In this document: one piece after another, positions 6,362-24,927 of the stretch | Numbering within the stretch: position 1 is the stretch's first letter | Layout: every line of letters begins with the position of its first letter | NCBI GenBank assembly: GCA_965153355.1 | Contig: OZ231126.1 | Span: 48,112,001 to 48,176,000, forward strand | DNA: 64,000 nucleotides | Direction: 5' to 3' | From: Flaccisagitta enflata | Lineage: Eukaryota | Notes under the pieces: model-generated | Told to the model about the DNA's origin: nothing | What the model saw: only the letters and a program-made list of their open reading frames with translations | Database searches by the model: none | Translations under genes and position numbers: made by a program

Positions 6362-9300
6362 ATGTCAAGGCTCACTTTGGTTGTTTTGCTCATTAATATC
6401 ATTATCCGAACTAATTTTCTCGCGGCAAAATCAACAATCTCAACATTTCCTCCCCAGAAAAGTATAAACTAAAACCGCATAGAAAAACCTGCAAAAGTTT
6501 AAGTGGTTTTTCCCATCGCAAATGTACAAAAGTCTTTTGAAAAGATACTCATTTCATAAGCATTGCATTTTAGGAAGTCGCCATTCCTTTGAATTTGATT
6601 TACCCGCTGGAGGTTCAACGCGGCGAGGGAAGGCGTCCACGGTGGGCAGTCATTATCGTAATGACGAATATGATTACCTATTTGATCCATACTGGGAATA
6701 CAGGTTAGGCCGGATGTCGCCTTGGAAGATGAGTCTTCAAAATTTTTGATTATTTTGCGAATCAGAAAAAGATCAAAGAAGTGAAAAAGATGAAAATATT
6801 TTCCCAGGGTTGTATTTTTGTCTTTTTAATATATCTGATTTTTTGGCACGCTAAACATCCGACTAACCATGCCCAAAAAAAAAAAAGGCACATCTTTTTC
6901 ACGCCTCTCGGTTGGTTCATAATAAGTGAAACTAAGAAAAATCAGTGAGCATTTTAAAGAGCTTCAAAAAATCTTTCATTTGAGTGGTCTCAGAATGCTG
7001 TAGCTCTAAAACTTTAGAAATTACAATGATATGAAGAAAAAAGGTCAATTTTGCTAACTGCCAGAAAGAGCGTTTTCACATATCACTTTGAACTGTACCT
7101 TTCATTTTCATTTTATCATAACTTCTAAACGAATCAAGTTAAAAATTTCTGCTTGGCGCCATTTTGAAGAAAATTTTCTAAATTTTTTTTTCCTCATGAA
7201 TTTTTTTTGATTTGCTTAAGTAACATCTGTGCAATAATTATTGCAACAACATAACATTTATCAATTTTTCTCCCCTTGAGCTATACTGTATTCACATATT
7301 TGATCAGGTTTGGTTATTTTTATGATAATACAAGCTATAACAAGACAGAAATTGAATTTACAATCCCTTTTAGAAGACACAAGTTAGATTTATTTAACAC
7401 AACTGAGAGATAGTTGTGTTCAGAATGTCAATCTTTCGGTTACTTTTACACCAAGATTTGACCATTTTGCTTATGAAATTAGACCTGAAATCCATGAGAT
7501 TATTAAACTACAGCTCAAGATCTAACCAGTGGCGCAATCCGCATGATTTTGTCTTTGTTCAATCAAATTTAAGAGTCTTTTTTAAGATAACACTGTTTTC
7601 TGGTAATTTTGCAGTGCCAAGAGAGATATATGTTTTCACTGATTTTGTTATATCTTGGCTTTGTTTTAAGTAATTGGGATATTATTCATGAGCAAAATGA
7701 AGCATTTTTCGAATACTAACTAATTGTGAAAATCAAATTTCTTTATTTCTTTTCATTAAAGTTTGACTATCTTACAAAGTTGTTGCAATAATTCTTGAAC
7801 AGGTGTTATTTTCACTGATACATAGAAAAACAAGGAAAATTTTGATGATCGAATGATCTACTCAGGCAAAAGCAGAGTGATCAACTTCATTTAGTTGTCA
7901 TTTTTAAACAAAAAAACTCACAATATTCTGCTTGGTCTAGTTTTAAAAAACTTTCGAATATCTTTCTAACGGTCACTGATTTTTTATAGTTTAATCTAAA
8001 AAGAGCGAATCAGCTTGCATTTAAAGATGAGTGTGCCATTTTTTTTTGGGCATGGTTAGATCCATCTCGATTACCAGAGAGCTTATTTTGTATTTTTCTA
8101 TCCATTTTCAGCGTCATGGAGGACGAGGAAAACCACAAAAATGAAGCAATGAAAAGCGATGGATTGAGTCAAATTTTCAAGGTGATATTCGCCCACTGTT
8201 ATTAATTTACGTATTACGATATGGGGTTGGCTTTGTTTTCAGTTTAACCATTATAATTATTTGAAACGTTCCCCAAACTGTTTTTGTCTCGCATATAAAC
8301 GCATGTACTAATTTATAATACTAGTTGACAATCACACTTCGTTATAGATATCGGCAGCTGGTAGTAAATTCAACCAGTCGCCTACTCAAAGAAAATTTGG
8401 TATTGGGTAAACGCAGAAGAAACAAGGCCGGATACACGGCAATCCAGTCGCGGACAGATGGGCAGGAGCAGTAATGCGAAAACCGCTCGTAATTCAAAAA
8501 TGTTACTTACTCACCGACCGACACGGCAAGTTCTAGAGACTAACATAACTCTTAAGCAGGGTTTCAATCGGTTGGATGGTTCCATCGCCGCGTCCCCTCC
8601 ACGGAGAGGCGAAGAAGTTTCTCACCGTCGTCATTCCGATGTATGGCAAGGGAAATTGGGCAAAGAAGATCAGCGGAGGAAAGTTGGCGGAACGAGAAGA
8701 GTTGGTGGGAAAGTAGGTGAACGAATTTCCGGGCGAAGAGTGCCAAGTATTGGAAATGATAATGAAGATGAAGCGATTGACGAAAGCGTTGAAGAAATGG
8801 ACACGATGGATAAGAGTGACGACGGGAGTCACTTTCTGGAAAGCGAAGAAGGCGAACATAATTCAAGCCCTCAAAACCGATCCATTTCCACGGATAAGAG
8901 ACAAATGAGATTTCAAGTAAGAAGTAACACAAAGAAATGGCGCCACAAAAGATAGGTCATAAATACATAATGATTTTAAGCTATTCATTTTAAGTCGCGG
9001 ACTCGCGACTCTGTAAGAGGCTGTCGGTCTGTTGGTCCATCCTTCCGTCCATCTATCGGTTTGTCCAATGTCCATACGTTATGCTCGACAGCGACATAAA
9101 TCCCGACAGAAGAAACCTTTGTTTTTTTGTTTTGTTTTTAACTAAGCTTTCATCCAATTTACTTAGTTTTTTTAAACTCCTACAAACAAAACAAAACAAA
9201 TTTCTTTTTTTTTTCTTTCTAATTAACGCTTTTTTTTTAAACTTCCTTCCCGTATCCTTCATCTTTAACTGTAGCCTCAGCCCGATGGACTTTCCAGCCC

Positions 9301-24300: not shown

Positions 24301-24927
24301 AATTCCGTTAAAAGCGGGTCCGTTGGAGCGGGGTTCAACTGTAAAGGGTTTACCCAACACCTAATACCAATACTTTCATACCGAAAATCACAAATCTAAC
24401 CCTAGAAAACATATATGTCCAAAAATCTAAAATGTCATGGACGGACAGACCGACGGACCAACCGACAGAGCAAGGCGATTAAAAAAAATGTAGGCTTCTA
24501 TTACAAATACAAATATTCACCCATCTCGTACCCCCAAAGATAGTGATGCTCAAACACTCGCAAACATATTTGCCGCAGGATTTTGGTATGCCTACAGCAA
24601 TATCTTGACGGATAAGCCAGGTATAGATAGTCAATGCATGAATTTTAATGTGTCCCGAACAATGGTGCACATAATGAAATTTGCCAATATTTGAATGTTC
24701 TTATTAAAAACTTTTTTAACGGTATTGAAAAAAATCAAGTCAATATTGTATAATGTTTTACCCTTTTAAAAAACATTGATACTTTTTCTCGATTTATCAG
24801 ACATTATGGCGAGAGTTGTCATCCGAGATCACACGACGTCCCGTTCCATGGTCACAGATTATTTCCGCTCTGTCCCTGCGATTCGGGCTTAACGTGCTTT
24901 GAAGATACCTGCGTTTCCCTCATCTGA
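6362..24927 (+). CDS. Secreted precursor with C-terminal prokineticin/astakine (colipase-fold) domain, ~291 aa (309 aa if the in-frame ATG at 6308 is used)
   Basis: Six GT-AG exons with matching phases: 6362-6461, 6574-6703, 8112-8181, 8560-8916, 23767-23858, 24801-24927 (876 nt). N-terminus [22 protein letters not shown] is signal-like. C-terminus ...[80 protein letters not shown] has 10 Cys and a GExCHPxSHxVPF motif as in prokineticins. The last two exons are strongly supported; joining across the 14.85 kb intron is inferred. Confidence 0.75.
6863..8059. mobile_element. Non-autonomous TIR element (~1.2 kb) in an intron
   Basis: CTAACCATGCCCAAAAAAA...GGCACA at the left end and TGTGCC..TTTTTTGGGCATGGTTAG at the right end; TSD unclear. 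Confidence 0.55.
9626..9902. repeat. Compound (GT)n/(CT)n microsatellite
   Basis: Directly visible. Confidence 0.95.
10069..11500 (+). repeat. Left TIR with tandem ~367-bp units
   Basis: AAATATCAATTTTT anchor recurs at ~10441, 10808, 11174; a degenerate further unit lies at ~11780-12040. Confidence 0.85.
12413..17020 (-). CDS. DDE transposase, 8 exons, ~822 aa; divergent hAT-related (hATm-like)
   Basis: Exons (minus) 17020-16746, 16649-16421, 15858-15159, 14831-14721, 14576-14224, 14077-13812, 13031-12602, 12517-12413 total 2469 nt, all GT-AG, no internal stop. Motifs HFDG (D1), [10 protein letters not shown] (D2), ACRRH (CxxH), PRDDY, ARWM, VNNPAER (E). Family name is from recalled motif pattern, not a search. 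Confidence 0.8.
13095..13555. repeat. (GTT)n trinucleotide microsatellite in transposase intron 6
   Basis: Directly visible; explains the poly-T/L/V ORFs. Confidence 0.95.
13641..13795 (-). mobile_element. DINE-1/Helentron-like family A copy inside transposase intron 6
   Basis: Reverse-complement copy: TTTTAGTCGTGTGCTACGCGACTCTAC...(GTCG)n...GTATCCGGCCTTGTT. Confidence 0.65.
17195..18394 (-). repeat. Right TIR with tandem ~367-bp units
   Basis: Reverse complement of the left arm; the ORF track shows the same pseudo-peptides on opposite strands. Confidence 0.85.
20224..22486 (+). mobile_element. DINE-1/Helentron-like element carrying ~2 kb of internal tandem arrays
   Basis: Family-A ends (AACAAGGCCAACACCTATAAGTCGCGTG; (CCGA)n...GTAGAGTCGCGTGCACGCGACTAAAA) enclose the arrays. 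Confidence 0.7.
20325..22320. repeat. Successive minisatellite arrays: (AAACCAGACT[C/T])-type ~11-mer, (AAACCAGCAGACTT) 14-mer, (AAAATGACC[A]) 9-10-mer
   Basis: Directly visible; source of the GHF/WSF/LVI ORFs. Confidence 0.95.
24164..24342. mobile_element. Tigger/pogo-like MITE
   Basis: CAGATAAACCCCGCTTCAACGG ... CCGTTGGAGCGGGGTTCAACTG|ta imperfect TIRs; related ends at ~47821, 61451, 62274. Confidence 0.55.

What the first reader, a model, noticed from the sequence alone, without database searches (positions are those of the whole stretch)
6362..24927. Hidden prokineticin/astakine-domain gene with a long cleavable pro-region, split over 18.5 kb
Seen in sequence: two small exons (23767-23858, 24801-24927) not represented in the ORF track splice into a complete 10-Cys domain containing [13 protein letters not shown] and CPC. 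Four upstream exons join in phase and add a signal peptide and ~190 aa of low-complexity, acidic pro-region ending in a KR site just before QMRFQTDC. Established: vertebrate prokineticins, Bv8 and MIT1 are ~80-aa peptides that begin AVIT directly after the signal peptide, and arthropod astakines and spider MIT-like toxins lack AVIT but are also short. Inference: this is a pro-hormone-style architecture in which convertase cleavage releases a ~77-aa Gln-initiated (possibly pyroGlu) peptide. It may be an undescribed type of neurohormone, haematopoietic cytokine or toxin precursor.
Basis: partly seen in the sequence, partly recalled or inferred. Interest (0 to 1): 0.82.

Follow-up and report, generated by a model that had tools for sequence, protein, structure and literature searches.

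The report
Unannotated prokineticin-like gene, possible long precursor
An animal genome window holds a real, unannotated gene for a prokineticin-type ten-cysteine signalling peptide, and a conserved upstream exon suggests, without RNA proof, that the peptide is cut out of a much longer precursor.

Summary
The two small exons (23767-23858, 24801-24927) are real. Spliced, they give a 10-Cys domain. Exon 6 alone passes Pfam Prokineticin (36.6 bits, cut-off 21.6). The domain is 49% identical to a frog Bv8-like protein and shares 8 of 9 Cys spacings with it.

The 291-aa six-exon model is reproducible: all sites are GT/AG and in phase. Exon 4 (8560-8916) is a genuine conserved coding exon. Three relatives from metagenome contigs keep its frame, and its last 16 residues, including KR-QMRFQ and the donor GT, are invariant. 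Similarity collapses just past the donor.

The 8916/23767 junction has no RNA support either way. No spliced protein turned up in the big protein collections. Exons 1-3 are weak: 29 in-phase chains pass my filters, and exon 1 has no coding signal.

Long precursors that release a colipase-fold peptide at a dibasic site near an exon's 3' end are already described for octocoral toxins (PMC11896702). Clade-specific N-terminal signatures are also known (PMC11521371).

Verdict: a real new family member with a plausible but unproven long-precursor variant. Interest is moderate.

The parts
6362..6461 (+). Putative exon 1: ATG, hydrophobic signal-peptide-like N-terminus (33 codons + 1 base), weak donor
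   Evidence: Translation and borders. The donor matches 5 of 9 consensus positions. Codon score is no better than open-frame intronic controls (0.71). SignalP was not available. An in-frame ATG lies 54 nt upstream at 6308.
6574..6703 (+). Putative exon 2 (130 nt), with a Tyr-rich acidic stretch
   Evidence: GT/AG borders and phase. Codon score is marginal (0.05). It is one of 29 in-phase chains.
8112..8181 (+). Putative exon 3 (70 nt)
   Evidence: Strong acceptor, and the donor matches 7 of 9 positions. Codon score 0.03. A metatranscriptome contig runs unspliced through 8058-8334 (record 3).
8560..8916 (+). Exon 4: conserved coding exon (119 codons), with a basic first half and an acidic second half
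   Evidence: Relatives P0006 (92%), P0007 (87%) and P0008 (63%) keep the frame. Codon score: 0 of 1500 controls reach it. The one listed indel inside it in run X1 is 3 bases long (table 4).
8869..8916 (+). Invariant 16-residue block ending the exon. KR is at 8896-8901, and QMRFQ at 8902-8916 is followed by the donor GT at 8917
   Evidence: Coordinates. The block is invariant in 3 of 3 relatives. P0008 is identical at 17 of the last 17 exon residues but only 33 of 68 in the rest. After the donor, identities are 9/19, 9/17 and 1/3.
8917..23766 (+). Proposed intron 4 (14,850 nt)
   Evidence: No convincing alternative signal-peptide exon lies inside it.
10069..18394 (.). About 8.3-kb inserted element with about 1.3-kb terminal inverted repeats, inside intron 4
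   Evidence: Inverted-repeat arms at 10069-11470 and 17123-18394, up to 98% complementary. Minus-strand ORFs lie at 12593-17080 and have no Pfam family.
23767..23858 (+). Exon 5: first half of the prokineticin-type domain (Cys 1-5)
   Evidence: Codon score 0.0013. With exon 6 it aligns to Bv8-like P0004.
24801..24927 (+). Exon 6: second half of the domain (Cys 6-10) and the TGA stop
   Evidence: Pfam PF06607 at 36.6 bits. PDB Bv8 and MIT1. Relative P0001 is 85% identical with all 5 Cys kept.
25369..25722 (+). Candidate polyadenylation signals: ATTAAA at 25369 and AATAAA at 25717
   Evidence: Pattern search only. There is no RNA support.

Best explanation
The region holds one unannotated animal gene for a secreted precursor of a prokineticin/Bv8/astakine-family (colipase-fold) peptide.

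Shown: exons 5 and 6 encode a complete 10-Cys domain of that family. Exon 4 is a conserved coding exon that ends in an invariant block with a dibasic KR, then five residues (QMRFQ), then a conserved phase-0 donor.

Inferred:
- Exon 4 splices over a 14.85-kb intron to exon 5. More than half of that intron is a recently inserted 8.3-kb element.
- Exons 1-3, or some other 5' exons, supply a signal peptide and the rest of a roughly 190-aa Cys-free, charge-segregated pro-region.
- In the secretory pathway a kexin/PC-type convertase cuts after KR214. This releases a 77-aa peptide whose free N-terminus (Gln, possibly cyclised) sits 7 residues before the first Cys. That tail would play the part that AVITGA, 6 residues before the first Cys, plays in vertebrate prokineticins.

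The target is unknown: a prokineticin-type GPCR, another receptor as proposed for astakine, or prey or predator channels if it is a toxin.
For: Domain:
- Pfam PF06607 on exon 6 alone: E=5.9e-9, 36.6 bits against a 21.6 cut-off.
- PDB Bv8 8.5e-11 and MIT1 1.5e-7.
- The spliced domain is 49% identical over 61 aa to Bv8-like P0004 (pairwise E 1e-20) and 45% over 66 aa to P0005.
- Cys gaps are 5,4,0,11,9,17,1,5,4 against 5,4,0,11,9,17,1,5,8 or 9.
- Relative P0001 keeps all 5 Cys of exon 6 at 85% identity.

Exon 4:
- 3 of 3 relatives keep the frame.
- The last 16 residues and the donor codon are invariant, while the most distant relative is only 33/68 identical elsewhere.
- Similarity and frame break down just after the donor.
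- 0 of 1500 open-frame controls reach its codon score.

Join:
- Both borders are phase 0 and canonical.
- No other part of the window resembles the model.
- No alternative signal-peptide exon in the intron has a donor matching more than 6 of 9 consensus positions: 0 candidates at strict thresholds, and 36 weak rows, mostly in simple repeats, at loose ones.
- In mouse prok2, exon 1 ends after signal peptide plus the first five mature residues (PMC8876856). Here the exon ends five residues after KR.
- There is no Cys in the 221 residues before the domain.

Precedent: octocoral colipase-fold toxins are released from longer precursors at dibasic sites placed at an exon's 3' end (PMC11896702).
Against: - No RNA evidence. 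In the polyA run X2 (about 6% of it read), depth over all six exons was about 0. Nearly all reads that were laid (353 of 355) were partial repeat matches, so it is not even clear that the run is of this species.
- In metatranscriptome X1, contigs run unspliced through 8058-8334 and 8554-9111, across the donor at 8916.
- No spliced protein with exon 4 or exon 6 was found in the 5.8-billion-cluster collection or the 1.84-billion representatives.
- Exons 1-3 are not uniquely determined: 29 in-phase chains pass my filters. Exon 1 has no coding signal and a weak donor (5 of 9).
- KR has Thr at P4, so it is not a furin consensus site.
- The intron is long (14.85 kb).
- The second domain intron splits the Cys 5+5, not 6+4 as in mouse prok2.
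Confidence: 0.5

Rival explanations
1. Two separate genes. Exons 1-4 belong to an unrelated secreted, low-complexity protein whose last exon lies elsewhere. The prokineticin exons use their own short signal-peptide exon that I could not recognise, giving an ordinary short precursor of about 100 aa like astakine or oyster prokineticins.
For: - All described family members whose lengths I saw here are short: P0004 at 96 aa and P0005 at 127 aa.
- Oyster precursors are described as a signal peptide plus the domain (PMC8398477, passages).
- No junction read was found.
- The gap is 14.85 kb.
- Weak candidates exist: 19508-19585 (donor 6 of 9) and 6159-6209 (GTAAGT donor, phase 0).
Against: - The candidates lack a clean cleavage region and have weak donors. 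Most lie in simple repeats.
- Exon 4's invariant end, five residues after KR and then a phase-0 donor, would be an unexplained coincidence with the family's known exon-1 layout.
- No other plus-strand coding exon was recognised between 8917 and VPS35 at about 31100.
Confidence: 0.25
2. One gene as modelled, but the N-terminal region is not removed. The product would be a secreted protein of about 266 aa with a disordered, charge-segregated N-terminal arm and a C-terminal colipase-fold domain, used for example for matrix or granule binding.
For: - KR is not a furin-type site.
- The ten residues upstream of KR are as invariant as the five after it, which a mere spacer would not need.
- Seven other dibasic pairs are scattered through the region. 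Of the five inside exon 4, the only ones that could be checked, the one at 159-160 is lost in 3 of 3 relatives.
Against: In this family a free N-terminal tail next to the first Cys is what activates the receptor in vertebrates (PMC8876856 and PMC8398477, passages). A conserved dibasic pair exactly one tail-length before the first Cys is the classic sign of processing. Octocoral relatives are processed at such sites, and the products were seen by proteomics (PMC11896702).
Confidence: 0.15
3. The domain exons are a decaying or unexpressed relic, and the upstream exons are chance open frames.
For: No expression was seen in the one polyA run sampled. No annotated protein was found.
Against: - Both domain exons are intact with canonical borders and a stop codon.
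- The relative P0001 differs at 6 of 41 residues and keeps every Cys and the CHPRSH/CPC motifs.
- Exon 4 keeps its frame at 63% identity.
- Codon scores of exons 4-6 exceed the controls.
Confidence: 0.05

Closest known systems
Vertebrate prokineticins / Bv8 / MIT1 (AVIT family, Pfam PF06607)
   Same: Ten Cys, with 8 of 9 spacings identical to P0004 and P0005. The CHPxSHxVPF and CPC motifs are present, with 45-49% identity over the domain. An intron lies just before the first Cys, and a short N-terminal tail is encoded on the upstream exon (PMC8876856).
   Different: - No AVITGA. The tail would be QMRFQ plus two residues.
- The tail follows a region of about 190 aa and a KR site instead of following the signal peptide directly.
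- Phe stands where vertebrate PKs have Trp24. P0004 also has Phe there.
- The last Cys loop has 4 residues, not 8-9.
- The second intron splits the Cys 5+5, not 6+4.
Octocoral and hexacoral colipase-fold nematocyst toxins (U-GRTX-Esi14-18; PMC11896702)
   Same: These are colipase-fold peptides without AVITG, encoded on two exons per domain and released from longer precursors at a dibasic site at the 3' end of the preceding exon. Esi14 has one long first exon carrying that site, followed by the two domain exons (section 3.2.4).
   Different: - Most of those precursors are modular, carrying several Cys-rich domains, not one domain behind a Cys-free region of about 190 aa.
- The paper's account of exon loss implies a 6+4 Cys split.
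- The taxon of this window is unknown.
Arthropod astakines and lophotrochozoan prokineticin-like peptides
   Same: They are invertebrate prokineticin-domain secreted proteins lacking AVIT (PMC8398477, PMC8557429, PMC11521371; passages).
   Different: They are described as short precursors. The astakine-specific internal signatures (Ericsson and Soderhall 2018, known to me only as cited in PMC11521371) could not be tested, because I held no astakine sequence. With exon 6 as query, the only significant named-type hits were vertebrate-like.
Ambulacrarian / Xenoturbella prokineticin ligands with a K/R-RFP-K/R signature
   Same: A clade-specific signature containing Arg-Phe sits next to the N-terminus of the domain, at the position of AVIT (PMC11521371). 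Here the corresponding residues are M-RFQ-T, preceded by KR-Q.
   Different: The core is RFQ, not RFP, and the flanks are not basic. The length of those precursors is not known to me, because the figure and source data are not held.

Membership tests
Prokineticin domain family (Pfam PF06607) | Profile match above Pfam's gathering score | tested here: met
   Exon 6 alone (41 aa) scores 36.6 bits against a 21.6 cut-off, E=5.9e-9, on profile positions 56-88 of 97. Exon 5 alone (30 aa) gave no hit. The spliced domain could not be submitted.
Prokineticin domain family (Pfam PF06607) | Ten cysteines with the family's spacing | tested here: met
   Gaps are 5,4,0,11,9,17,1,5,4 against 5,4,0,11,9,17,1,5,8 (P0004) and 9 (P0005). 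8 of 9 are identical.
Vertebrate AVIT prokineticins | Mature N-terminus AVITGA directly after the signal peptide | tested here: not met
   The residues before the first Cys are QMRFQ plus two more, preceded by KR and a region of about 190 aa.
Vertebrate AVIT prokineticins | Trp at position 24 | tested here: not met
   Phe is at the aligned column. Bv8-like P0004 also has Phe there.
Vertebrate AVIT prokineticins | Exon layout: exon 1 is signal peptide plus 5 mature residues, and the domain exons carry 6 + 4 Cys (PMC8876856) | tested here: inconclusive
   The first intron is in the equivalent place, 5 residues after KR. The second intron is displaced, giving a 5 + 5 Cys split.
Vertebrate AVIT prokineticins | Activates PROKR-type GPCRs | not testable with these tools
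   No genome is held for this window, so not even the presence of a receptor gene could be checked.
Arthropod astakines | Two astakine signature sequences inside the domain (as cited in PMC11521371) | not tested
   No astakine sequence was available from any call, and the motifs are not given in the passages I read.
Ambulacrarian/Xenoturbella prokineticin ligands | K/R-RFP-K/R next to the domain's N-terminus | tested here: not met
   The window has M-RFQ-T. Only the Arg-Phe is shared.
Anthozoan colipase-fold toxin precursors | Dibasic cleavage site at the 3' end of the exon preceding two domain exons | tested here: met
   KR is at 8896-8901, five codons before the end of exon 4. The domain lies on exons 5 and 6. 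Compared with PMC11896702 section 3.2.4.
Anthozoan colipase-fold toxin precursors | Modular precursor with several Cys-rich domains; nematocyst location | tested here: not met
   There is a single domain and no Cys upstream of it. The location is not testable.
Convertase-processed prohormones | Signal peptide | tested here: inconclusive
   The putative N-terminus has a basic n-region, a 12-residue hydrophobic core, and small residues at -3/-1 of two possible sites, judged by eye. No predictor was available, and the exon itself is unsupported.
Convertase-processed prohormones | Conserved dibasic site in front of the bioactive part | tested here: met
   KR and its flanks are invariant in 3 of 3 relatives.
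Colipase / Dickkopf C-terminal domains | Profile match above the gathering score | tested here: not met
   Colipase_C scores 17.5 bits (cut-off 23.7). MIT_LIKE_ACTX scores 14.7 (cut-off 27.5). The DKK sub-domain scores 13.7 (cut-off 27).

The most novel reading that the evidence does not exclude
This would be a prokineticin-family ligand whose receptor-facing N-terminus is created by prohormone-convertase cleavage, not by signal peptidase. The cleavage would free it from a granin-like pro-region of about 190 aa that is Cys-free, charge-segregated and rich in Tyr and acidic residues. The invariant (p)Gln-Met-Arg-Phe-Gln tail would be a new lineage-specific counterpart of AVITGA. That would mean regulated, granule-stored release of a prokineticin-type hormone, cytokine or toxin in an invertebrate.
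Probability: 0.35. Interest if true: 0.55.

Novelty: new variant of a known kind. Interest (0 to 1): 0.42.

Why it matters
Prokineticin-related peptides are among the few peptide signals shared by bilaterians and cnidarians (PMC6188537). How their N-terminal tail is generated, and what it looks like, decides receptor activation in vertebrates.

A domain with vertebrate-like spacing and motifs, but with a different invariant tail placed behind a conserved dibasic site, gives a concrete and testable candidate for a new N-terminal signature. It would also mean a different maturation route, by convertase instead of signal peptidase. The gene appears to be missing from protein collections, so it would be missed in surveys based on annotated proteomes.

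The gain is incremental. The family, the loss of AVIT outside chordates, and dibasic processing of colipase-fold peptides are all already described.

Tried and rejected
RNA test: only two runs were offered.
- X2 (polyA, about 6% read) gave depth of about 0 on all exons. 353 of its 355 laid reads were partial repeat matches. No constitutive gene lay in the laid stretch, so I cannot tell whether the run is of this species. This gives no verdict.
- X1 contigs are unspliced and 1-7% divergent. They could be DNA or pre-mRNA, possibly of a relative.
- The 8494 to 24437 joint in table 5c lies in a dispersed short repeat and is an artefact.

Searches that found nothing:
- Own genome is not held.
- Metagenome-contig scans with exon 4 and with an exon 6 alignment gave no locus.
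- A viral-contig scan gave none.
- Exon 4 against longer proteins gave none of 252 candidates.

Representative search with exon 6: 5 hits. Two of them (P0002, P0003) are repeat artefacts with no Cys pattern.

Taxon: Atlas look-alikes of VPS35 and of the family-2 GPCR gave no usable answer. The commonest phyla were Bacillariophyta/Cercozoa for one and Arthropoda/Cnidaria for the other. Rfam gave no match. The taxon is left open.

Codon scoring against an unconditioned null was rejected because stop codons inflate it. It was replaced by an open-frame null.

Earlier notes of this scan: none are relevant.

Literature: searches listed no paper describing a prokineticin-domain precursor with a long Cys-free pro-region. 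I read only listings and the passages cited. Supplements were closed, including Figure 8 source data of PMC11521371 and the precursor schemes of PMC6188537, PMC8398477 and PMC11896702. These may hold such precursors.

Not done: structure prediction of the spliced domain, because a spliced protein cannot be handed to that tool.
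Full report
WHAT IS IN THE SEQUENCE

The window is animal nuclear DNA. It has spliced genes, 18.3% tandem repeats, and a VPS35 gene matching human VPS35 at E=4e-152.

At 23767-23858 and 24801-24927 two short exons have strong acceptors, a GT donor and a TGA stop. 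They join in phase to give 72 residues with ten Cys. Exon 6 alone passes Pfam Prokineticin PF06607: E=5.9e-9, 36.6 bits against a 21.6 cut-off. Colipase, MIT-like atracotoxin and Dickkopf models all stay below their cut-offs. In the PDB the best matches are Bv8 (8.5e-11) and MIT1 (1.5e-7).

The spliced domain, joined only inside a script, is 49% identical over 61 aa to a frog-type Bv8-like protein (P0004) and 45% over 66 aa to a prokineticin-like protein (P0005). Its Cys gaps are 5,4,0,11,9,17,1,5,4 against 5,4,0,11,9,17,1,5,8 or 9. A relative's genomic ORF (P0001) is 85% identical over exon 6 and keeps all its Cys.

THE UPSTREAM EXONS

The exons are 6362-6461, 6574-6703, 8112-8181 and 8560-8916, followed by the two domain exons. 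All borders are GT/AG. The total is 876 nt and 291 aa. The only Cys are at 222-287, and KR sits at 213-214.

The parts differ greatly in support.

Exon 4 is solid:
- Three relatives, all unspliced ORFs on short metagenome contigs, match it at 92%, 87% and 63% identity with only whole-codon gaps.
- Its last 16 residues (8869-8916), including KR and QMRFQ, and the Val codon that holds the donor GT, are invariant in all three.
- In the most distant relative the last 17 exon residues are 17/17 identical, while the rest is 33/68.
- Past the donor, identities fall to 9/19, 9/17 and 1/3, and one close relative shifts frame within nine codons.
- 0 of 1500 stop-free intronic controls reach its codon score.
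- The two closest relatives' called ORFs both start three residues after the proposed acceptor. This suggests, indirectly, that the frame is closed upstream of it in them.

Exons 1-3 are weak:
- Their codon scores are matched by 0.71, 0.05 and 0.03 of controls.
- Exon 1's donor matches 5 of 9 consensus positions.
- Under crude splice filters, 4 one-exon and 25 two-exon chains also keep the frame open between exon 1 and exon 4.
- The N-terminus looks like a signal peptide by eye. No predictor was available.

IS EXON 4 JOINED TO EXON 5?

There is no direct evidence either way.
- The single polyA run offered (X2, about 6% read) gave essentially no depth on any exon. It may not even be this species.
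- Metatranscriptome X1 holds unspliced contigs across 8058-8334 and 8554-9111.
- No spliced protein was found in the large collections, and no related locus in the contig collections.

The indirect evidence favours the join:
- Both borders are phase 0.
- Nothing else in the window resembles the model.
- A scan for signal-peptide first exons ending in phase 0 found none at strict thresholds. At loose thresholds it found 36 weak rows within the intron, mostly in microsatellites, none with a donor above 6 of 9. It also found one weak candidate at 6159-6209.
- More than half of the 14.85-kb intron is an 8.3-kb element with about 1.3-kb, 98%-matching terminal inverted repeats. The original intron was therefore about 6.5 kb.
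- Most telling is the layout. [quoted passage not shown] Here exon 4 ends exactly five residues after an invariant KR, and exon 5 starts two residues before the first Cys.

MECHANISM

I think the most likely reading, at about 0.5 for the whole chain, is a secreted precursor cut after KR by a kexin/PC-type convertase. This would release a 77-aa peptide with a Gln N-terminus and a 7-residue tail before the first Cys, against 6 residues for AVITGA.

The pro-region is not simply acidic. The first half of exon 4 has net charge +9 and the second half -13. Exon 2 carries a Tyr-rich acidic stretch. Of the five other dibasic pairs that lie inside exon 4, the one at 159-160 is lost in all three relatives; the two pairs in exons 1-2 could not be compared.

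Rivals:
- Two separate genes (0.25).
- One gene but no cleavage (0.15). The ten invariant residues upstream of KR and the non-furin P4 residue speak for this reading.
- A relic (0.05).

COMPARISON AND NOVELTY

The domain is a member of the prokineticin family, by profile and by Cys spacing. It is not an AVIT-type prokineticin: it has no AVITGA and no Trp24, and the second intron splits the Cys 5+5 rather than 6+4.

Loss of AVIT outside chordates is known (PMC8398477, PMC11521371; passages). Clade-specific signatures at the same position are also known. One is K/R-RFP-K/R in ambulacrarians and Xenoturbella. The window's M-RFQ-T shares only the Arg-Phe with it.

Long precursors that release colipase-fold peptides at dibasic sites at an exon's 3' end are described for octocoral nematocyst toxins. 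One of them has a single long first exon carrying the site, followed by two domain exons (PMC11896702, section 3.2.4 read whole).

What would be new here is a single vertebrate-like domain behind a Cys-free pro-region of about 190 aa, with a new invariant tail. I could not compare with astakines because I held no astakine sequence. I also could not see supplements that may show other long precursors. The taxon stays undetermined.

VERDICT

This is a real, apparently unannotated prokineticin-family gene. The long cleavable precursor is plausible and has one strong indirect argument, but it is unproven. I class it as a new variant of a known kind, with moderate interest.

Noticed in passing
window 10069-18394: An element of about 8.3 kb sits inside the proposed intron. 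Its terminal inverted repeats are about 1.3 kb long and up to 98% complementary, which suggests a recent insertion. Minus-strand ORFs at 12593-17080 (147, 196, 406 and 112 aa) match no Pfam family at E<=0.01.
   Followed up: partly
window 39913-40698 (+): An intronless 261-aa short-chain dehydrogenase ORF (adh_short, E=2.6e-57) lies between VPS35 and the next gene. Its best PDB matches carry bacterial-type enzyme names, such as putative blue fluorescent protein and clavulanic acid dehydrogenase, at E about 1e-43. It could be a transferred or retained bacterial-like gene.
   Followed up: partly
window 31037-39359 (+): VPS35 is encoded in a few very large exons. The last open frame of about 345 aa is uninterrupted and matches human VPS35 at E=4e-152. 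That is unusually intron-poor for so conserved a protein.
   Followed up: partly
window 62284-63999 (-): A 571-aa open frame runs off the window end. It has a somatomedin-B-like Cys-rich N-terminus and a family-2 (7tm_2/DUF8401) GPCR look-alike pattern in the Atlas (score 0.95). The commonest phyla of the look-alikes are Arthropoda and Cnidaria.
   Followed up: partly
window 8420-8550, 9020-9080, 23650-23690, 24430-24470: A short dispersed motif of GTC/GAC-rich units (ggtcggtc-like) recurs in the introns. It produced false joints when the metatranscriptome contigs were laid, for example 8494 to 24437.
   Followed up: no
whole window: Tandem repeats cover 18.3% of the window (125 arrays). They include long (GA)n and (CA)n tracts and a roughly 460-nt TGTTGT-type array near 13090-13560.
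   Followed up: partly
window 6574-6703 (putative exon 2): The stretch is rich in Tyr flanked by Asp and Glu, a context typical of tyrosine sulfation in secretory-granule proteins. I read this by eye only.
   Followed up: no
window 30276-31022 (-): A 248-aa open frame looks like the tail of a retroelement polymerase by eye, but it matches no Pfam family at E<=0.01.
   Followed up: partly
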